The notes: generated by a model not told the origin, from the letters alone. A stretch of 64,000 bases of DNA from Winogradskyella sp. 3972H.M.0a.05 (GCF_040493455.1 NZ_JANFDA010000001.1:483283-547282), one strand, 5' to 3'; numbered from the stretch's first letter, positions 27,437 to 32,549 are shown. Translations and numbers: made by a program.

Positions 27437-27509
27437 TGACGTATAGCTTAGTCGGTAGAGCAGGGTGCTTTTAACACCAAGGTCGTGAGTTCGAATCTCG
27501 CTGCGTCAA
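27437..27509 (+). tRNA. tRNA-Lys (anticodon TTT)
   Basis: Manual cloverleaf: acceptor tgacgta/tgcgtca (U1:A72), D-arm gctt-agtcggtag-agc, anticodon loop cttttaa, T-arm cgtgagttcgaatctcgc. Confidence 0.8.
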
Positions 27510-27515
27510 CAAATT

Positions 27516-27588
27516 GGGGATATAGTTTACCAAGCCAAAACAGTGGGTTTGCAACTCGCAGTACGGAGTGTAAGTCTCCGTGTCTCCA
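27516..27588 (+). tRNA. degenerate tRNA-like gene (anticodon-position TGC, Ala-like); probable pseudogene
   Basis: Cloverleaf can be drawn (acceptor ggggata/tgtctcc, loop tttgcaa). The D-loop lacks GG, the T-loop is tgtaagt, and the anticodon stem has two G-U pairs. Confidence 0.4.
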
Positions 27589-27593
27589 CAAAA

Positions 27594-27665
27594 GATATTG
27601 TAGCTCAATGGTAGAGCAGGCGGCTGTTAACCGCCAGGTTGAAAGTTCGAGTCTTTCCAATATCG
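27594..27665 (+). tRNA. tRNA-Asn (GTT)
   Basis: Acceptor gatattg/caatatc, anticodon arm ggcgg-ctgttaa-ccgcc, T-arm ggttgaaagttcgagtcttt. Confidence 0.85.
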
Positions 27666-27668
27666 CTA

Positions 27669-27742
27669 GACAAGGTGGCTGAATGGTTAAAGCGGCAGTC
27701 TGCAAAACTGTTTTTTTATGAGTTCAAATCTCATCCTTGTCT
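27669..27742 (+). tRNA. tRNA-Cys (GCA)
   Basis: Acceptor gacaagg/ccttgtc, loop ctgcaaa, T-arm atgagttcaaatctcat. Unusual T6 run in the variable region. Confidence 0.75.
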
Positions 27743-27754
27743 CAAAAAAAATTA

Positions 27755-27897
27755 GGGAATGCGTCCAAGTTGGAGAGTGGAGCCAGTCTGACTAGAGCTT
27801 GCGACTGAGCGAAACCGATTTAAAACAATAGAAATGATTGAGTTAAAAACTGGTGCTTCGGTTGAATAGGTTCGAAATGCAGAGCATTCATGAGCAC
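27755..27897 (+). other. non-canonical tRNA-like gene A: type-II-like 5' part with an approximately 55-nt anticodon-loop insertion and the derived 3' module
   Basis: Acceptor-like gggaatg; D-stem tcc/gga with a 12-nt GG-containing loop. Anticodon stem ccagt (27783) pairs with actgg (27849) across 62 nt. The 3' end is aggttcgaaatgcagagcattcatgagcac. Confidence 0.4.
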
Positions 27898-27949
27898 AGC
27901 GATTCAAAAACTAAAATCAAGCGAACTAATCCTATGATTCCCACAACAA

Positions 27950-28021
27950 GCATCTATAGTGTAATTGGCAACATAGTAGATTTCCAATCTACAGTTTCGA
28001 GTTCGAGTCTCGGTAGGTGCT
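27950..28021 (+). tRNA. tRNA-Gly (TCC)
   Basis: Acceptor gcatcta/taggtgc, loop tttccaa, T-arm tcgagttcgagtctcgg. Confidence 0.85.
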
Positions 28022-28031
28022 CATAATACAC

Positions 28032-28103
28032 GCGCTTATGGTGTAATGGCTAGCATCTGAGTCTCCAAAACTTAGGGTTGAGGTTCAAGTCCTTATGGGC
28101 GCG
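28032..28103 (+). tRNA. tRNA-Trp (CCA)
   Basis: Acceptor gcgctta/tgggcgc, D-arm gtgt-aatggcta-gcat, loop ctccaaa, T-arm tgaggttcaagtcctta. Confidence 0.85.
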
Positions 28104-28110
28104 CAAATTA

Positions 28111-28240
28111 TATCTATGGTGTAATTGGATAGCACAAGAGATTTAGCTCACAGACTAATTATTATAAAATGTGGAGTTCCTGAATGCTTCGCATTTCTAA
28201 TCTCTAAGTCCGAGTTCGAAATGCTTTGCATTCATGAGTT
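28111..28240 (+). other. non-canonical tRNA-like gene B: tRNA 5' part with a 52-nt anticodon-loop insertion (possible mature loop tttctaa, Arg-TCT) and the derived 3' module
   Basis: D-arm gtgt-aattggata-gcac as in Trp/Gln. Anticodon stem agaga (28137) pairs with tctct (28201) across 59 nt. The 3' end is gagttcgaaatgctttgcattcatgagttc. Confidence 0.4.
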
Positions 28241-28292
28241 CTTATTTATCAAAATAATAATATGACGAACTAACCTTGGTAGATATACATCT

Positions 28293-28364
28293 GGTTCATT
28301 GGGGTAATGGATATCCTTCCCGACTGTCTCTCGGGAGATACGAGTTCGATTCTCGTATGAACCG
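28293..28364 (+). tRNA. tRNA-Asp (GTC)
   Basis: Acceptor ggttcat/atgaacc, loop ctgtctc, T-arm acgagttcgattctcgt. Confidence 0.85.
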
Positions 28365-28369
28365 CAACT

Positions 28370-28451
28370 GTGCTCTGTTACCATAAGATATGGTGCTGGG
28401 TTCTAAAAAGGGAAGTATAAGGGGCCATTTTCTTTACAGAGCACATTTTTT
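28370..28451 (+). terminator. terminator-like structured element: perfect 9-bp stem enclosing a 57-nt substructured loop, followed by a T6 run
   Basis: gtgctctgt...acagagcac then attttttaag. An internal hairpin ccata-aga-tatgg is present. Confidence 0.45.
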
Positions 28452-28466
28452 AAGAGATTATTCAAT

Positions 28467-28548
28467 GGAAGGGCAATTGGTGGTGGCCACAGTCTTGAAA
28501 ACTGTTCGGAGCTAACGACTCGTGTGGGTTCAACTCCCACCTCTTCCG
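28467..28548 (+). tRNA. tRNA-Ser (TGA), class II with variable arm
   Basis: Acceptor ggaaggg/ctcttcc, anticodon arm acagt-cttgaaa-actgt, variable arm about 18 nt, T-arm gtgggttcaactcccac. The D-arm is poorly defined. Confidence 0.65.
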
Positions 28549-28801
28549 CTACATGGAGGGTAGGCAAATACTGGTTCGTTGCGCTCGTTTGCTAAACAAG
28601 TCCGTGAGAAATCCGGTGAAGGTTCAAATGCGAAGCATTCACGAATACCTATTTATTGAATAAGTATTTAATGAGTAACTCCTTTATCCTCCGCAAATCT
28701 GGGAATAGAACAATTGGCTGTTTACTCGCTTTGGATGCGAGAGGTTGTAGAGCCTGTGCCGAACTAGATTCGGTATTCGAGTCCTACTTCTCAGACGAAA
28801 T

Positions 28802-28928
28802 GCTCCATTAGCATAGTGGTTTAGTGCATTCGGCTTTAACTCACTGACGCATATTTAGGAAATTGGTTTCGTTGAATTCGCAAACTCATTTCTACCGAAA
28901 GACAAGGGTTCGATTCCCTTATGGAGTA
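28802..28928 (+). tRNA. tRNA-like gene with a 54-nt insertion in the anticodon loop (mature loop could be ctttcta for Glu-TTC, or ctttaa-a for anticodon TTA)
   Basis: Acceptor gctccat/atggagt, D-arm gca-tagtggtttag-tgc. Anticodon stem ttcgg (28829) pairs with ccgaa (28895) across 61 nt. Normal T-arm aagggttcgattccctt. Confidence 0.5.
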
Positions 28929-28935
28929 CAAATTT

Positions 28936-29007
28936 TGAGGCATAGCTCAGTGGTAGAGCGTCACGCTTACATCGTGATTGTCATAGGTTCGATCCCTATT
29001 GCCTCAA
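28936..29007 (+). tRNA. tRNA-Val (TAC)
   Basis: Acceptor tgaggca/tgcctca (U1:A72), D-arm gctc-agtggtag-agcg, loop cttacat, T-arm ataggttcgatccctat. Confidence 0.85.
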
Positions 29008-29012
29008 CATAA

Positions 29013-29085
29013 TGAGATATAGCTTAACTGGTAGAGCGCCGCTCTGATAAGGTGGTAGGTTTAGGTTCAACTCCTAATATCTCAA
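29013..29085 (+). tRNA. tRNA-Ile (GAT)
   Basis: Acceptor tgagata/tatctca, loop ctgataa, T-arm ttaggttcaactcctaa. Confidence 0.85.
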
Positions 29086-29095
29086 CTAATAATAA

Positions 29096-29168
29096 TGAGA
29101 TGTAGCTTAATTGGTAGAGCATCGCTCTCATAAGGCGAAACGTCTAGGTTCGAGTCCTAGCATCTCAA
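29096..29168 (+). tRNA. tRNA with CAT anticodon (elongator Met or lysidine-Ile2; not initiator-like)
   Basis: Acceptor tgagatg/catctca, loop ctcataa. The anticodon stem lacks the 3 G-C pairs of an initiator. The body closely resembles the adjacent tRNA-Ile. Confidence 0.8.
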
Positions 29169-29174
29169 CAATTT

Positions 29175-29249
29175 ACAGGAATGGCGAAAATGGCAAACGC
29201 ACTCGACTTAGACTCGAGGTATCTGAGAGTTCGAATCTCTCTTCCTGTA
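29175..29249 (+). tRNA. class-I-shaped tRNA with Leu anticodon TAG (no long variable arm)
   Basis: Acceptor acaggaa/ttcctgt, D-arm gcg-aaaatggcaaa-cgc, perfect anticodon arm ctcga-cttagac-tcgag. Only 6 nt lie between the anticodon stem and the T-arm gagagttcgaatctctc. A73 is present. Confidence 0.6.
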
Positions 29250-29253
29250 CTAT

Positions 29254-29327
29254 GCTCCACTAGCCCAAATGGCAGAGGCATCAGTCTTAAACACTGAGTA
29301 GTCCAAGTTCGAATCTTGGGTGGAGTT
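29254..29327 (+). tRNA. class-I-shaped tRNA with Leu anticodon TAA (no long variable arm; U73)
   Basis: Acceptor gctccac/gtggagt, anticodon arm tcagt-cttaaac-actga, 5-nt variable loop, T-arm ccaagttcgaatcttgg. Confidence 0.6.
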
Positions 29328-29333
29328 CAACAA

Positions 29334-29410
29334 GCTCATGGTGTAATGGATAGCATTCAAGGCTACGGACTTTGAGGTATGGGTTCGAAATGCAAAGCAT
29401 TCACGAGCTC
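29334..29410 (+). other. non-canonical tRNA-like gene D: tRNA-Arg(ACG)-like body whose T-arm is replaced by the derived 3' module
   Basis: Acceptor gctcatg pairs with cacgagc. D-arm gtgt-aatggata-gcat, anticodon arm caagg-ctacgga-ctttg, then aggtatgggttcgaaatgcaaagcattcacgagctc. Confidence 0.45.
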
Positions 29411-29459
29411 AAATTTATCAAAATGATTATGAGGCGAGCTAGTCCTATTGAGCTTACAA

Positions 29460-29531
29460 TAACCTGTAGTGTAATGGTTAGCATTCAAGACTTTGACTCT
29501 TGAGGTAAAGGTTCAAATCCTTTCAGGTTAT
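29460..29531 (+). tRNA. tRNA-Gln (TTG)
   Basis: Acceptor taacctg/caggtta, D-arm gtgt-aatggtta-gcat, loop ctttgac, T-arm aaaggttcaaatccttt. Confidence 0.85.
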
Positions 29532-29533
29532 CT

Positions 29534-29606
29534 GGTGTCTATAGTGTAACGGCTCGCACGAGAGATTGTGGTACTCTAAGATTAGGTTCGACTCCTAATA
29601 GACACC
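29534..29606 (+). tRNA. tRNA-His (GTG) with encoded G-1 paired to C73
   Basis: G-1 then gtgtcta pairs with tagacac then C73. Loop ttgtggt, T-arm ttaggttcgactcctaa. Confidence 0.8.
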
Positions 29607-29612
29607 CAAAAT

Positions 29613-29685
29613 GGAGCAGTAGCAAAGTTGGTCAATGCAGCAGATTGAAGTTCTGACGATATAGGTTCGATTCCTGTCTGTTCCA
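29613..29685 (+). tRNA. tRNA-Phe (GAA)
   Basis: Acceptor ggagcag/ctgttcc, loop ttgaagt, T-arm ataggttcgattcctgt, A73. Confidence 0.8.
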
Positions 29686-29689
29686 CAAA

Positions 29690-30256
29690 TTTTCATGAAT
29701 TTTTAATTACGCAAAATCATTGCGTAATAGAAATTCACCTTTGTATCAACATTTACCGATAAAGGTAGAATTACGTTCATTGAAATTAAATGAAGTCAAA
29801 GTACTTCATTATAGAAAGAAATCGTCATTAGAAATAATGACGGGGCGGCTTATCGTCCTTAGATAAACTTGGCAACAAGGATAAATCTGCTTGCAGGCAC
29901 TGCGAGTGGAGACTGTTTTCTCTAGAGATCAGTACAGGTAAGCAAGCAACTAACATAAATCATAAAAAGCTAGGGGCAACCGCTGAAGCAAATTAGGATT
30001 TATAGCCAATATTTTTGGAGGCTTGAGGTGGAGACACCAACAGGAAAAGTTGTAGTAATAGGTTACGTATAGGTCATCCAACCTTATGGAGCGTGTTGCA
30101 GTATTAGAGGTACCCGACAAGAAATTGTTCGGTAGCTCAACATACCGTGTGCTGGGAGGCACACAAAGAGAAGGTTGGTATTTTGTAGGCCAAAATCTAC
30201 GGAGCCATTTCCGAAGCCCTTCTCTTAGGCCAGACGATAGTCTATCTCCAACAAAA
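29690..30256 (+). ncRNA. ORF-free structured RNA candidate (hairpin-dense, locally GC-enriched); identity unknown
   Basis: No ORF above about 115 aa and none with a plausible start or composition. Multiple perfect hairpins (ttacgcaa-aatc-attgcgtaa; cgtcatta-gaaa-taatgacg with a GNRA loop; gtag-gccaaaat-ctac; ccgacaag-aaatt-gttcgg). GC is well above the flanking sequence. Confidence 0.35.
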
Positions 30257-30831
30257 TGGGGATATAGCTCAAGTTTAGAGCATTGTATTTTTAACACAAA
30301 GGTTGACTTTATATCTTAAATGCAAAAGACTTCGGACATTACAGCAGCTAGTAGTTGCCTAAACCTATTGAAACATATAGGATGGTAGAGGTCGCAAACC
30401 TATACCATGTGGTGAACATTCTAGTAGGCCGCCTCAAGAGAGGACGCCTATGAATGGTGGGGGAGCCAACCCTCGTAATTGCAAAGCGTGGCCGTAGAGC
30501 CTCTATGCAAGCCAAGTCTAAGTCGCCGAACAGCTGTAATGTAATTAGGCATCGGACAAGTACGTGATTCCCTAAGCGATGGGAAGAGCGTGGAAAACCA
30601 AGGAAGGGCTACGGCTATAATCTTGGGAAAGTTTGTCTACAAGCGGAGGTATTCTCAGCACGCTTTTTTTAAAAATATCAAGCTGGTCTTGTTGCGTGTT
30701 TCTGTATAGCACCATTGTATAGAAGATTGCAGGGATGTATTATGCTTCTATATGCAACTAGACTTGAAGGTTTGGGTTTATCCAAAAAACTCCACCAAAG
30801 TTCAGTGTGGGTTCGAATCCCACTATCTCTA
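30257..30831 (+). other. split tRNA-like gene: intact 5' half (acceptor, D-arm, anticodon arm with loop tttttaa) separated by about 500 nt of structured sequence from a T-arm plus acceptor 3' half; either an intron-containing tRNA or two pseudogene fragments
   Basis: 5' half ggggatatagctcaagtttagagcattgtatttttaacacaa at 30257-30299. 3' half gtgggttcgaatcccac-tatctct-a at 30807-30831. The acceptor halves pair with 2 G-U. The intervening sequence is ORF-free and hairpin-rich, with an internal T7 run at about 30675. Confidence 0.35.
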
Positions 30832-30833
30832 AC

Positions 30834-31451: not shown

Positions 31452-32549
31452 ATGAAACAAGTAAGAATTAATGCAGGAAAAGTTGGTTTGGTCTTCAAAA
31501 AAGGGGATTACCAAAAAGTATTGACGCAAGGTAAATACTGGTTAGGCTTTGGACAAGATGTTTATATCTATGACTTAGCCAAGACATTCCACGCTCCCAT
31601 AGCATTAGAGCTCTTAGTAAAGGATAAAACCTTAGAGGCTATGTTGGAGGTTGTTGAGGTAAAAGATAATGAACTGGTATTGGTGTTTGAAAACAACATT
31701 TTAAATACTGTATTATCTGCCGGAAGATATGTGTACTGGAAAGGTTTGGTAGAGCGCGAGTTTACAAGAGTAGACTTAAGCAAGATCGATATTACAGAAG
31801 ATATTGATAAAGCGTTATTCAGCAAGTATGAATTGAATAAGTACATCAGATCTTTTGAAGTCGCTACTCATGAAAAAGCAGTACTTATCATTGATGATGT
31901 GTACGAAAAAACACTTGGGCCAGGTATCTATCGTTTCTGGAGAAACGATACTTCAATTAAAATTGCAAAAGCAGATTTACGTCAATTACAATTAGAAATT
32001 GCAGGTCAGGAATTGTTGACTAAAGACAAGGCTGCTATTCGTATCAACTTTTACACTCAGTACAAAGTAACAGATATTGAAAAGGCACTTTTAGAGAACA
32101 AGGACTACGAAAAGCAATTGTACATTGGAATGCAATTAGTATTGCGTGCTTATGTAGGTACATATACTTTGGACGAACTTTTAGAACGTAAGGATAATAT
32201 TGCCGAGGCTGTATTAGAAGACGTAAAAGAGTTAGCTTCAAAGTTAGGTATCACAGTATTGAACACAGGTATTAGAGATGTAATCTTAACAGGTGAAATG
32301 AAAGACATCATGAACCAGGTACTTGTGGCTCAAAAGAAAGCCCAAGCTAATATCATTACTAGACGAGAAGAAACAGCTTCGACTCGTAGCTTGTTAAACA
32401 CAGCAAAGTTGATGGAAGAAAATGAAATGTTATACAAGTTGAAAGAGATGGAGTATGTTGAAAAAATTGCTGATAAGATTGGTGAAATTACAGTTTCTGG
32501 TCACGGAGGTGTAGTTGCACAATTGAAAGAGATTTTCTCTGGAAAATAA
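31452..32549 (+). CDS. SPFH/band-7 (stomatin/flotillin-like) domain protein with an unknown approximately 190-aa N-terminal domain; no TM helix
   Basis: The C-terminal approximately 170 aa is SPFH-like (AIRINFYTQYKV...NTGIRDVILTGEMKDIMNQVLVAQKKAQANII...). Confidence 0.65.
   Translation: MKQVRINAGKVGLVFKKGDYQKVLTQGKYWLGFGQDVYIYDLAKTFHAPIALELLVKDKTLEAMLEVVEVKDNELVLVFENNILNTVLSAGRYVYWKGLVEREFTRVDLSKIDITEDIDKALFSKYELNKYIRSFEVATHEKAVLIIDDVYEKTLGPGIYRFWRNDTSIKIAKADLRQLQLEIAGQELLTKDKAAIRINFYTQYKVTDIEKALLENKDYEKQLYIGMQLVLRAYVGTYTLDELLERKDNIAEAVLEDVKELASKLGITVLNTGIRDVILTGEMKDIMNQVLVAQKKAQANIITRREETASTRSLLNTAKLMEENEMLYKLKEMEYVEKIADKIGEITVSGHGGVVAQLKEIFSGK

What the first reader, a model, noticed from the sequence alone, without database searches (positions are those of the whole stretch)
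27860..29410. Four copies of a conserved 3' module, ggttcgaaatgc-N3/4-gcattcaYga, replacing the normal T-arm/acceptor of tRNA-like genes
Copies lie at about 27869-27897 (loop agag), 28212-28240 (ttt), 28621-28647 (gaa) and 29381-29410 (aaa).

- The stem aatgc/gcatt is invariant while the loop varies.
- The module begins exactly inside a canonical T-loop (GGTTCGAA|) and is followed by a strand that pairs with the gene's 5' acceptor. Examples are D (gctcatg/cacgagc) and A (gtgctt/gagcac).
- It looks like a structured replacement of the T-arm 3' half, not random decay.
- It could be an att-like recombination scar at the classic tRNA T-loop integration point, or a functional variant arm of a tRNA-derived RNA family.
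Basis: seen in the sequence. Interest (0 to 1): 0.7.

Follow-up and report, generated by a model that had tools for sequence, protein, structure and literature searches.

The report
Mobile mini-inserts splitting bacterial tRNA T-loops
The four "modules" are the front ends of ~52-base, two-hairpin mobile inserts that split the T-loop of otherwise complete tRNA genes in an accessory tRNA array. The family is widespread in marine Bacteroidota and looks like an undescribed bacterial mini-intron or mini-transposon.

Summary
The repeat is real, but it does not replace the T-arm.

**What is in the window**
- Each copy is the 5' end of a 51-53-nt insert lying between T-loop nucleotides 59 and 60 of a complete tRNA gene. 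The hosts are a Tyr-like type II tRNA, Arg-TCT, Ser-GCT and Arg-ACG.
- The missing T-stem and acceptor 3' strands lie about 40 nt downstream.
- A fifth copy sits inverted in the anticodon loop of Arg-TCT.

**Structure and spread**
- The insert has an ATGC-N3-GCAT hairpin and a second hairpin closed by covarying pairs around a tandem G·A motif. It ends in TAA or TAG.
- A covariance model and pattern scans find about 120 copies, almost all in dense tRNA arrays of Flavobacteriia and Cytophagales. Rfam, phage and plasmid collections hold none.

**Insertion rule**
- Copies always follow TTNGAA or TTCAA in a hairpin loop.
- They are sense in T-loops (75 cases) and antisense in anticodon loops (11 or more cases). 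This points to insertion at the DNA level.

**Mobility and selection**
- Host exons keep their cloverleaves through compensatory changes.
- One identical insert sits in two host genes that are only about 79% identical.
- So the element is mobile and its hosts remain under selection.

**Removal**
- Removal from the transcript, perhaps by cleavage plus the RtcB ligase encoded next to 17 of 68 loci, is inferred and not shown.

The parts
27437..29686 (+). Accessory long tRNA array of about 25 tightly packed tRNA genes that hosts all the inserts
   Evidence: ARAGORN and Rfam tRNA calls. Three relatives with the same PEP carboxylase and, in two of them, the ferritin neighbour have no array here.
27755..27943 (+). 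tRNA 'A', a Tyr-like type II body, interrupted twice. The acceptor is GGGAATG/GATTCCC and the T-stem is ATAGG/CCTAT.
   Evidence: Read. After removal of both inserts ARAGORN calls an 83-nt type II tRNA. The body matches the uninterrupted Tyr(GTA) tRNA of L037.
27790..27846 (+). Anticodon-loop insert of tRNA A. It is a diverged sense copy of a second sub-family (..TGAGCGAAacc..TTGAGTTAA). Its ends are approximate.
   Evidence: Compared by eye with the sub-family 2 copies listed. Model R1 does not detect it.
27877..27929 (+). T-loop insert copy A (53 nt): ATGCagaGCAT TCATGAG..GCGAAC TAA
   Evidence: R1 match of 48.6 bits, E 4.9e-10. It is flanked by aggttcgaa| and |tcctat.
28110..28287 (+). tRNA 'B', Arg(TCT), interrupted twice. 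The acceptor is ATATCTA/TAGATAT and the T-stem is CCGAG/CTTGG.
   Evidence: After T-loop excision ARAGORN calls tRNA-Arg(tct) with a 52-nt anticodon-loop intron.
28143..28194 (-). Fifth copy of the element, inverted, in the anticodon loop of tRNA-Arg(TCT). On the bottom strand it reads agattagaa|ATGCgaaGCAT..GTGAGCTAA|atctct.
   Evidence: R1 match of 40.8 bits, E 4.5e-8 on the minus strand. The same site and orientation occur in L034, L042, L072, L074 and L086.
28221..28273 (+). T-loop insert copy B (53 nt)
   Evidence: R1 match of 62.4 bits, E 1.7e-13.
28555..28693 (+). tRNA 'C', Ser(GCT), type II. The acceptor is GGAGGGT/ATCCTCC, the T-stem is GAAGG/CCTTT, and the restored T-loop is TTCAACT.
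   Evidence: After excision ARAGORN calls tRNA-Ser(gct). The same gene is interrupted at the same site in L059 and L068.
28628..28678 (+). T-loop insert copy C (51 nt)
   Evidence: R1 match of 51.4 bits, E 9.7e-11.
29332..29456 (+). tRNA 'D', Arg(ACG). The acceptor is AAGCTCA/TGAGCTT and the T-stem is ATGGG/CCTAT.
   Evidence: After excision ARAGORN calls tRNA-Arg(acg) of 73 nt. Rfam sees only the 5' part at 16.7 bits.
29390..29442 (+). T-loop insert copy D (53 nt). It ends in TAG, which fixes the boundaries as TTCGAA|ATGC...TAG|T.
   Evidence: R1 match of 55.5 bits, E 9e-12.
28802..28929 (+). tRNA carrying a 54-nt inverted sub-family 2 insert in the anticodon loop (insert 28836-28889, minus strand)
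   Evidence: Rfam tRNA at 56.9 bits across 127 nt. The reverse complement of the insert reads ATGAGTTTGCGAATTCAACGAA..GTGAGTTAA. Excision by the GAA|..TAA| rule gives the loop CTTTCTA (Glu-TTC). ARAGORN's own intron boundaries give UUA instead.

Best explanation
The four modules are the 5' ends of four copies of a small, structured, mobile intervening element of 46-54 nt. The copies in this window are 51-53 nt.

**Shown**
- Each copy lies between T-loop nucleotides 59 and 60 of an otherwise intact tRNA gene, in an accessory long tRNA array of Winogradskyella sp. 3972H.M.0a.05. A fifth copy lies inverted in an anticodon loop.
- The element has this order of parts:
  - hairpin P1 (ATGC-N3-GCAT);
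  - the linker TCA;
  - hairpin P2, whose base is Y-R, G.A, A.G, N-N', N-N' with Watson-Crick covariation;
  - a tail, (N)TAA.
- Its two ends are predicted to lie side by side at the foot of a rod-like fold.
- It always lies immediately 3' of TTNGAA (or TTCAA) in a hairpin loop of about 7 nt. The strand that carries this motif sets the orientation: sense in T-loops, antisense in anticodon loops that read TTCNAA.
- It has spread among at least 17 tRNA isotypes and across genera.

**Inferred**
- Insertion happens on DNA, probably on folded single-stranded DNA, through an enzyme encoded elsewhere in the genome.
- The interrupted genes stay under purifying selection, and anticodon-loop copies cannot be tolerated in a working tRNA. 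The insert is therefore most likely cut out of the precursor RNA and the exons rejoined, so it behaves as a mini-intron.
- The RtcB RNA ligase that accompanies many of these arrays is the obvious sealing enzyme.
- The cutting activity is unknown.
For: **Interruption of complete genes**
- ARAGORN finds a tRNA across the junction in 1/63 copies when the insert is left in, and in 44/63 after its exact removal. The optimum is at the predicted insert length.
- The remaining copies mostly carry a second insert.
- Filled and empty orthologues exist. The window's Leu-TAG reads GAGAGTTCGAATCTCTC, whereas L019, L041 and L084 have 49-51 nt inserted after TTCGAA.

**A family, not chance**
- The genome scan returned 79 loci against roughly 4 expected by chance. 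About 68 of them are Bacteroidota.
- Model R1 finds 5 copies in the window, 89 in the 68 loci and 29 in 26 metagenome contigs.

**Structure**
- Pair 15-50 is CG in 32 sequences and UA in 24.
- Pair 18-47 is AU in 33 and GC in 16.
- Pair 19-46 is UA in 37 and CG in 16.
- None of 500 shuffles reached the observed covariation, and partners slid by 1-3 columns lose the signal.
- P1 variants are compensated: ATAC/GTAT, ATCC/GGAT, ATGT/ACAT and ATGCGT/ACGCAT.

**Target rule and orientation**
- Sense T-loop copies number 58 plus 17.
- Antisense anticodon-loop copies number 10 plus 1, in Arg-TCG, Arg-TCT, Gly-TCC, Trp-CCA and Gln-TTG. Several more were left unscored.
- No copy breaks the rule.

**Mobility**
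- L041 and L054 carry inserts identical at 49/49 positions in Leu-TAG genes that are only about 79% identical and differ by compensatory stem changes.

**Host genes under selection**
- The T-stem is 5/5 paired in 58 of 63 copies, while insert cores are about 56% identical among same-isotype copies.
- Compensatory changes occur in the anticodon and T-stems of interrupted Cys, Pro and Phe genes.
- In 35 of 37 cases the interrupted tRNA is the only copy of its anticodon in its locus. In the window, Arg exists only as interrupted genes.

**RNA-repair neighbourhood**
- RtcB occurs in 17 of 68 loci, PrfH (peptide chain release factor H) in 8, an RNase H-like DUF458 protein in 14 and a Band 7 protein in 28.
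- No transposase or integrase is found in any locus.
Against: - There are no RNA data. Splicing is inferred only from conservation.
- No RtcB lies in this 64-kb window. RtcB next to long tRNA arrays is already explained in cyanobacteria as tRNA repair (PMC8421152).
- Antisense copies would present the complementary RNA, yet they keep the element's motifs. That fits a constraint on DNA better than one on RNA.
- No canonical bulge-helix-bulge motif (BHB, the archaeal splice signal) is present.
- No known ribozyme matches.
- At least one host looks damaged. Tyr-like gene A, and its orthologues in L046 and L077, cannot regain a 7-nt GTA anticodon loop by any clean excision.
- My genome scan required the 5' motif exactly, so conservation of P1 and TCAYGA in the 58-sequence set is partly due to how the set was collected.
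- 'Orthologous' inserts could in part be independent insertions at the same site.
Confidence: 0.6

Rival explanations
1. The element is a purely selfish miniature DNA element, MITE-, PATE- or REP-like and moved in trans by a single-strand-DNA transposase. It is never removed from RNA. The interrupted tRNAs are dead copies, tolerated because the array duplicates the housekeeping tRNA set.
For: - The target is defined by a DNA sequence on either strand.
- There are no target-site duplications (TSDs) and no terminal inverted repeats (TIRs). There are hairpins near both ends and a conserved 3'-terminal TAA that resembles the NGAA target. Tandem head-to-tail copies occur in L035. All of this resembles IS200/IS605-type elements.
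- Antisense copies keep the motifs.
- Tyr-like gene A cannot be cleanly restored.
- The array is accessory.
Against: - Exon stems remain paired and change by compensation, while insert cores diverge to about 56% identity.
- The 3' motif, which my search pattern did not require, is kept in every resident copy. Dead copies should lose it.
- Interrupted genes are usually the only copy of their anticodon in the array.
- Copies are almost confined to loops of structured RNA genes, although TTNGAA is a common hexamer.
- No Y1 or HUH transposase is found in the window or in any of the loci searched.
Confidence: 0.25
2. The element is a site-specific recombination (att-type) cassette. In this reading the 52-nt element is the arm of an attachment site used by a recombinase that crosses over in the T-loop or anticodon loop, which are the classic integrase sub-locations. 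The array copies would be minimal integrated units or scars.
For: - In Cytophagales the element sits in 120-170-bp units immediately downstream of an intact housekeeping tRNA (Thr, Cys or Pro).
- Each unit repeats that tRNA's 3' end from nucleotide 60 together with its terminator, up to 4 times in tandem. This is the attL/attR signature of tRNA-targeted integration.
- T-loops and anticodon loops are both stem, 7-nt loop, stem targets.
Against: - In the window and in about 75 other T-loop cases nothing but the 46-54 nt is inserted, and no tRNA segment is duplicated.
- No integrase is found in the window or in any of the loci searched.
- The filled and empty sites share only (G/T)AA as common core.
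- The covarying internal hairpin with a tandem G.A motif is not a typical feature of an att arm.
Confidence: 0.07
3. The insert stays in the mature tRNA as an extra arm projecting from the elbow, tolerated between nucleotides 59 and 60. On my own knowledge these two nucleotides lie outside the 5-nt T-loop motif. The tRNAs would work, or act as decoys, without splicing.
For: - The two ends of the insert are brought together by coaxial P1 and P2, so it could plug into the loop without breaking the U54-A58 or G53-C61 pairs. This is an inference from the structure.
- All sense copies are at exactly 59/60.
Against: - The same family also sits in anticodon loops of Arg, Gly, Trp, Gln, Cys, Phe and Ser genes. 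An insert left there would abolish decoding, yet those genes are equally well kept.
- On my own knowledge, an arm on the elbow would clash with RNase P, the ribosomal L1 stalk and L5.
Confidence: 0.05
4. One reading: the module replaces the T-arm 3' half of tRNA-like genes, making a family of tRNA-derived RNAs with a variant arm.
For: Only the local appearance of the sequence: a T-loop start, then a hairpin, then partial complementarity to the 5' end.
Against: - Complete T-stem and acceptor 3' strands lie 40 nt downstream in all four genes.
- Excision restores standard tRNAs here and in more than 60 other loci.
Confidence: 0.01

Closest known systems
Non-canonical archaeal tRNA introns, including T-loop positions, and their proposed transposition among tRNA genes in Thermoproteales (from my own knowledge of the work of Sugahara, Fujishima and Kanai; not checked in the paper library)
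   Same: - Short inserts of tens of nucleotides at several tRNA positions, including the T-loop and the anticodon loop.
- Related insert sequences shared between different tRNA genes, which implies mobility.
- The exons rebuild a normal cloverleaf.
- RtcB is the ligase in that system, and RtcB genes accompany these arrays.
   Different: - The host is a bacterium, and no splicing endonuclease is known in it.
- No canonical 3-4-3 bulge-helix-bulge is present. The 3' 'bulge' is 4-6 nt, the second flanking helix is not continuous, and the covariation supports a competing fold.
- Inverted copies occur.
- The insertion site obeys a DNA sequence rule, TTNGAA|.
Group I introns in bacterial tRNA genes (anticodon loop)
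   Same: An intervening sequence inside a bacterial tRNA gene that is mobile and patchily distributed.
   Different: - These inserts are 46-54 nt, whereas group I introns are longer than 200 nt.
- There is no P1-P9 core and no Rfam Intron_gpI match.
- They lie mostly in the T-loop.
- They occur in both orientations.
IS200/IS605-derived miniature elements (PATEs) and REP/RAYT elements
   Same: - No terminal inverted repeats and no target duplication.
- Hairpins near both ends.
- Insertion immediately 3' of a short specific sequence.
- The element's 3' end resembles the target.
- Head-to-tail tandems occur.
- The copies encode nothing and would be moved in trans.
   Different: - The element is only about 52 nt, and the left hairpin abuts the junction. 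That does not match the IS608 guide and cleavage-site spacing as I recall it.
- The target is a hairpin loop of an RNA gene.
- No Y1 transposase was found nearby.
- Resident copies look individually conserved.
Intervening sequences (IVS) of bacterial 23S rRNA and IStrons
   Same: Sporadic helical inserts in stable-RNA or protein-coding genes that are removed from the transcript, so that the host gene still works. IStrons combine IS605-type mobility with splicing.
   Different: - An IVS is removed by RNase III without religation.
- IStrons carry a group I ribozyme and open reading frames.
- Neither targets tRNA loops.
[quoted passage not shown]
   Same: - The host locus is such an array: accessory, with about one gene per amino acid.
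- In many relatives it lies next to RtcB and other translation-rescue genes.
   Different: That paper does not mention T-loops, and its only mention of introns is RtcB's role in archaeal and metazoan tRNA splicing. It explains rtcB as repair of cleaved tRNAs.

Membership tests
tRNA gene (host genes A-D) | A complete cloverleaf with a 7-bp acceptor stem, a 5-bp T-stem and a 7-nt T-loop | tested here: met
   Met only after the insert is removed. ARAGORN then calls Arg(tct), Ser(gct) and Arg(acg), and a type II tRNA for A. Across the family the count is 1/63 before excision and 44/63 after.
Long tRNA array (L-array) | About 20 or more tightly packed tRNA genes, nearly one per amino acid, absent from close relatives | tested here: met
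   ARAGORN makes 14 standard calls and 24 at a relaxed threshold with introns allowed, a few of which are spurious. Rfam makes 17. The syntenic loci L007, L008 and L010 lack the array.
Group I intron | A conserved P1-P9 catalytic core, typically longer than 200 nt | tested here: not met
   The inserts are 46-54 nt. No Rfam match was found at E <= 10.
Archaeal-type BHB intron | Two 3-nt bulges separated by a 4-bp helix, with both splice sites in the bulges | tested here: not met
   A 4-bp helix (T54-R57 with YGAR) and a 3-nt 5' bulge (A58, A59, A1) can be drawn in all 63 copies. However, the 3' bulge is 4-6 nt, the second flanking helix is not continuous, and YGAR covaries with the insert's own CAYGA. 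Inverted copies cannot form the motif.
Archaeal-type BHB intron | A splicing endonuclease (EndA) encoded in the genome | not testable with these tools
   Only the 64-kb window and the fetched stretches of up to about 14 kb around each locus are available. No whole-genome protein search was possible.
Archaeal-type BHB intron | An RtcB-type ligase available | tested here: inconclusive
   RtcB (PF01139) lies within 8 kb in 17 of 68 related loci, but not in this window.
MITE (classical) | Terminal inverted repeats and a target-site duplication | tested here: not met
   The ends are ATGC... and ...GAGCTAA, which are not inverted repeats. The flanks GAA| and |T or |A are not duplicated. Copies ending in TAG rule out an AA duplication.
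IS200/IS605-type miniature element | No TIR or TSD, hairpins near both ends, and insertion 3' of a fixed short target | tested here: met
   Tandem insertion after the element's own TAA is seen in L035.
IS200/IS605-type miniature element | A cognate Y1 (HUH) transposase | tested here: inconclusive
Whole genomes were not searchable.
Integrase att site in a tRNA gene | A direct repeat of the tRNA 3' segment and an adjacent integrase | tested here: not met
   There is no duplication and no integrase in the window. Duplicated 3' ends are seen only in the Cytophagales units.
Known self-cleaving ribozymes (hammerhead and others) | A match to the catalytic core and helices | tested here: not met
   No Rfam hit at E <= 10 in the window, or at E <= 5 in the Cytophagales loci. 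The Cytophagales units look hammerhead-like (GGAUGA-[GAACC..GGUUC]-GAA-A[UGC..GCA]U-U). They lack stem I and have G where U4 should be.

The most novel reading that the evidence does not exclude
Marine Bacteroidota may have a true tRNA-splicing pathway that does not use group I introns.

- In this reading, mobile 50-nt mini-introns in T-loops and anticodon loops of stress-array tRNAs are cut out and the exons sealed by RtcB. The cutting agent would be an unknown nuclease or a new small ribozyme built on the P1 / tandem G.A junction.
- Maturation of the array's tRNAs would then depend on the RNA-repair ligase.
- This would give bacterial RtcB a dedicated natural substrate.
- It would also be the first bacterial counterpart of archaeal split or intron-bearing tRNAs.
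Probability: 0.35. Interest if true: 0.92.

Novelty: new variant of a known kind. Interest (0 to 1): 0.78.

Why it matters
- Apart from group I introns, bacterial tRNA genes are not known to carry introns. The physiological substrates of bacterial RtcB are still debated.
- This is a widespread, structurally constrained insert of about 52 nt that splits T-loops and anticodon loops while its host genes stay under selection. It makes both questions testable in cultivable strains such as Kordia algicida OT-1 and Winogradskyella psychrotolerans RS-3.
- Even if it proves to be only a selfish element, it would be a new kind of miniature mobile DNA. It homes to the most conserved hexamer of tRNA genes when that hexamer lies in a hairpin loop.
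- The inserts also make standard tRNA finders miss genes. Here two Arg, one Ser, one Tyr-like and one Glu-like tRNA are missed or misread, so the coding capacity of tRNA arrays is underestimated.

Tried and rejected
**Searches that found nothing useful**
- The IMG/VR pattern scan gave 6 hits, all chance matches with no T-stem context and no adjacent tRNA.
- GenBank phages matched only generic tRNA similarity.
- PLSDB plasmids gave nothing.
- Rfam matched no family on the inserts.
- Looking up the exact PEP carboxylase product failed. Homologues identified the source genome instead.
- Five literature searches found no description of T-loop mini-inserts in bacteria.

**Structural ideas tested and set aside**
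- RNAalifold on the 58 inserts found only P1. P2 had to be proposed by eye and then tested.
- My first idea was that the insert's YGAR pairs with the exon's TTCR, giving a BHB-like fold. Every sequence is compatible with this, but it is supported only by A57 co-occurring with U, and the covariation favours the internal P2.
- I tried two hammerhead mappings of the element and of the Cytophagales units. I rejected both because essential core positions and stem I are missing.
- ARAGORN's own intron boundaries gave 'Stop(tta)' and 'Leu(taa)' calls. For the Cys, Phe and Ser hosts the GAA|..TAA| rule replaces these. They remain unresolved for the Tyr-like and Glu-like hosts.

**Insertion mechanisms considered and rejected**
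- Ligation into a TT^CGAA restriction cut does not fit, because the flanks do not match.
- An AA or NAA target duplication is ruled out by the copies that end in TAG.
- phmmer for Y1 transposase, RAYT and XerD found nothing relevant.


Full report
**1. The observation**

- Their common core is (G/A)GTTC(G)AA-ATGC-NNN-GCAT-TCAYGA, and every loop is 3 nt.
- The sub-pattern AATGC-N3-5-GCATTCA occurs five times in the window, against 0.07 expected from dinucleotide-preserving shuffles.
- The fifth copy is on the minus strand at 28181-28195.
- The repeat is therefore real and not due to chance.

**2.

About 40 nt past each module lie a strand complementary to the T-stem 5' strand and, directly after it, a 7-nt strand complementary to the true 5' acceptor strand.
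- In D, ATGGG-TTCGAA[53 nt]T-CCTAT-TGAGCTT-A pairs with AAGCTCA at 29332.
- A, B and C are built the same way (coordinates are in the parts list).
- After the 51-53 nt are deleted, ARAGORN calls Arg(TCT), Ser(GCT) and Arg(ACG). After removal of a second insert it calls a type II tRNA for A.
- The T-arm is therefore interrupted between nucleotides 59 and 60, not replaced.

**3. Context**

- The window is a chromosome of Winogradskyella sp. 3972H.M.0a.05. Its PEP carboxylase is 100% identical to that strain's protein, and the neighbouring genes are ordinary cellular genes.
- The tRNAs form a dense array at 27437-29686.
- A GOLLD-like RNA follows the array.
- Three relatives that share the PEP carboxylase gene, two of them also the ferritin neighbour, have no array at this position. 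The array is therefore an accessory island of the 'L-array' type described in PMC8421152.

**4. A large family**

- An exact-pattern scan of one genome per species returned 79 loci, where about 4 were expected by chance. About 68 are Bacteroidota, spanning many Flavobacteriaceae genera, Crocinitomicaceae and Cytophagales. The remainder are chance matches in unrelated phyla.
- In 63 cases an insert of 37-54 nt (all but one 46-54 nt) is flanked by an intact T-stem, with 5/5 pairs in 58 of them.
- ARAGORN finds a tRNA across the junction in 1/63 copies when the insert is left in and in 44/63 after excision. Detection peaks at the predicted insert length.
- Hosts in the genome loci cover at least 15 isotypes. 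Metagenome copies add His and Phe.
- A covariance model built from the inserts alone, without any exon sequence, finds the following:
  - exactly five copies in the window;
  - 89 copies in the 68 loci;
  - 29 copies in 26 metagenome contigs.
- Nothing comparable is present in Rfam 15, IMG/VR, GenBank phages or PLSDB.

**5. Anatomy**

The consensus, with flanking exon bases in lower case, is:

ttcgaa | ATGC NNN GCAT TCA Y GA N N ...AT-rich variable hairpin... N' N' GA R (N) TA(A/G) | t

In my first set it is invariant because the search pattern required it. Copies found by the model carry compensated variants: ATAC/GTAT, ATCC/GGAT, ATGT/ACAT and ATGCGT/ACGCAT.
- P2 was not found by RNAalifold, but a direct count supports it strongly:
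  - Y15-R50 is C-G in 32 sequences and U-A in 24;
  - N18-N47 is A-U in 33 and G-C in 16, with U.U in 9;
  - N19-N46 is U-A in 37 and C-G in 16.
- None of 500 shuffles reached the observed covariation, and the signal vanishes when the 3' partners are slid.
- Between these pairs lie the invariant G16-A17 and G48-A49, which form a tandem G.A motif.
- The linker TCA can pair weakly with the terminal TAA. When the last base is G, this becomes a U.G pair. P1 and P2 would then stack, and the two ends of the insert would lie side by side.
- Copies that end in TAG, together with filled and empty orthologues such as the window's uninterrupted Leu-TAG versus L019, L041 and L084, fix the boundaries as TTCGAA|ATGC...TA(A/G)|T.
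- T-loops with A57 (TTCAA|) carry one extra exon nucleotide after TAA, so the restored loop is always 7 nt.

**6. Target rule**

When every model hit is classified without regard to strand, the pattern is strict.
- Sense copies are always at T-loop position 59/60 (58 plus 17 cases).
- Antisense copies are always in anticodon loops whose bottom strand reads TTNGAA or NNTCAA. The hosts are Arg-TCG, Arg-TCT, Gly-TCC, Trp-CCA and Gln-TTG (10 plus 1 scored cases, and several left unscored).
- A second sub-family (ATGAG..CGAATTCAACGA..TGAGTTAA) lies in the sense orientation after GCAA| or TGAA| in the anticodon loops of Cys, Phe and Ser-TGA. It lies inverted in the window's 28802 tRNA.
- The site is therefore a short DNA motif presented in a hairpin loop of about 7 nt, on whichever strand carries it.
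- This is hard to reconcile with reverse splicing into tRNA transcripts. It points to insertion on DNA, plausibly on folded single-stranded DNA.
- There are no terminal inverted repeats and no target duplications.
- Head-to-tail tandems occur after the element's own TAA.
- These features resemble IS200/IS605-type elements. However, no Y1 transposase or integrase is encoded in the window or in any of the loci searched.

**7. Mobile, yet hosted by genes under selection**

- L041 (Winogradskyella) and L054 (Leeuwenhoekiella) carry inserts identical at 49/49 positions. Their host Leu-TAG genes are only about 79% identical and differ by compensatory changes in the anticodon stem. The insert is therefore younger than its hosts.
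- Conversely, interrupted Cys genes from five genomes differ by compensatory changes in the anticodon stem, and interrupted Pro and Phe genes by compensatory changes in the T-stem. Their insert cores are only 44-78% identical.
- The 3' motif, which my search did not require, is kept in every copy.
- In 35 of 37 cases the interrupted gene is the only copy of its anticodon in its locus. In the window, Arg is represented only by the interrupted genes B and D.
- Neutral decay would have broken the 10-nt T-stems, which remain 5/5 paired in 58 of 63 copies.
- I conclude that most hosts are working genes.
- Copies in anticodon loops cannot be tolerated in a mature tRNA, so the insert must be removed. 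Removal from the RNA is the simplest route.

**8. Neighbourhood**

Clustering of the ORFs across loci gives the following recurrent neighbours.

| Neighbouring gene | Loci (of 68) |
|---|---|
| Band 7 / SPFH (also in the window at 31452-32549) | 28 |
| TPR protein | 19 |
| RtcB (PF01139) | 17 |
| RNase H-like DUF458 | 14 |
| Unknown 106-aa protein | 11 |
| PrfH (TIGR03072, above the curated cut-off) | 8 |
| Metallophosphoesterase | 5 |

- RtcB seals 2',3'-cyclic phosphate and 5'-OH ends, and it is the tRNA splicing ligase of archaea and animals.
- The link is suggestive only. rtcB beside long tRNA arrays has already been interpreted as tRNA repair, and this window has no RtcB.

**9. Mechanism, with the status of each step**

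*Shown*
- The inserts interrupt complete genes.
- They have a two-hairpin architecture supported by covariation.
- They follow the target and orientation rule.
- They form a family spread across genera and isotypes.
- There is evidence both for recent movement and for selection on the host genes.

*Inferred*
- Insertion occurs at the DNA level, through an enzyme acting in trans.
- The insert is excised at the RNA level and the exons are religated by an RtcB-type ligase.

*Unknown*
- The cutting activity.
  - The sense RNA can be drawn in a relaxed bulge-helix-bulge-like form, but that form conflicts with the covarying P2 fold and fails for inverted copies.
  - No known ribozyme matches.

*Unresolved difficulties*
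- Inverted copies keep the element's motifs, with a few more mismatches at the Y-R pair: 3/14 against 3/63.
- The Tyr-like gene A and its orthologues in other Winogradskyella species cannot regain a 7-nt GTA loop. Some hosts may therefore be dead.

**10. Comparison with known systems and novelty**

- The nearest analogue in behaviour is the set of short, apparently transposing introns at non-canonical positions of archaeal tRNAs. This comparison rests on my own knowledge.
- The nearest analogue in the logic of insertion is the IS200/IS605 family of miniature elements.
- The element fails the defining tests for group I introns, BHB introns, classical MITEs, integrase att sites and known ribozymes (see the membership table).
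- Five full-text searches found no description of it. The library is incomplete, so prior description cannot be excluded.
- I classify it as a new variant of a known kind, namely a mobile intervening sequence in tRNA genes.
- There is a substantial chance, about one in three, that it marks a categorically new bacterial tRNA-splicing pathway.

**11. Verdict**

- The finding ranks high. It is a widespread family that I could not find described. It hides tRNA genes from annotation, defines a new insertion target, and gives a concrete, testable lead on bacterial tRNA splicing and on the function of RtcB.

Noticed in passing
window 30166-30664 (+), with flanks 30257-30296 and about 30781-30833: A GOLLD-like RNA (RF02032, 130.4 bits, just under the gathering score of 150, E 2.4e-35) lies directly downstream of the array. 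ARAGORN joins a tRNA 5' half and 3' half across 484 nt of it, as if the GOLLD core sat inside a tRNA. A similar GOLLD-like hit (136 bits) follows the array in L016. GOLLD near or containing tRNAs is already known (bioRxiv 10.1101/2024.12.08.627333).
   Followed up: partly
window 28698-28790 (tRNA-Pro TGG, 93 nt); L037 minus strand, downstream of the interrupted Phe gene: A third, shorter insert of about 25 nt sits at the boundary between the T-stem and the T-loop. It reads AGCCTGTGCCGAACTAGATTCGGTA here and AGCCTGTGCCGGACTTGATTCGGTA in L037. I could not define clean boundaries.
   Followed up: partly
L040 4100-4640; L035 1230-1720; L017 6750-6560 (minus strand); L052 6760-6640 (minus strand): In Cytophagales the element sits in units of 120-170 bp just downstream of an intact housekeeping tRNA (Thr, Cys or Pro). 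Each unit repeats that tRNA's 3' end and its terminator, up to four times in tandem. Each unit also carries GGATGAGAACC-loop-GGTTCGAA upstream, which looks hammerhead-like (CUGAUGA / stem II / GAAA / stem III / UH) but has no stem I and no Rfam hit.
   Followed up: partly
L047 3507-3556 (minus strand), L051 4827-4876, L076 379-428 (Gelidibacter): Copies of the element are inserted after GTTCAA in a structured sequence that is not a tRNA. That sequence has a long-range pairing (GGGCGTTA...TAACGC) and no Rfam match. The target is therefore not strictly limited to tRNA genes.
   Followed up: no
window 28366-28465: A spacer of about 100 nt within the array is closed by an 8-bp inverted repeat (GTGCTCTG...CAGAGCAC) and has an internal hairpin. 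It matches no tRNA or Rfam family, and its nature is unknown.
   Followed up: no
window 29175-29328, and the Leu groups: The array's 'Leu' tRNAs (TAG and TAA anticodons) are 75-76 nt long and lack the long variable arm that bacterial Leu tRNAs normally have. Their identity is uncertain.
   Followed up: no
window 30665-30833; L046 1518-1675; L077 downstream of the Tyr-like gene: A conserved stretch (ATCAAGC..GTCTTGTT..GTTTC.GTATAGCAC.ATTGTATA...) follows the GOLLD-like RNA or the interrupted tRNAs and ends in a tRNA 3' half (GGTTCGAATCC...CTCTAAC). It may be part of a larger RNA.
   Followed up: no
L046 818-1490 (Winogradskyella psychrotolerans RS-3): Between the TPR gene and the Band 7 and RtcB genes is a much-reduced 'array'. 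It holds a doubly interrupted Tyr-like tRNA, an interrupted Pro tRNA, and one element copy that is not in a tRNA.
   Followed up: no
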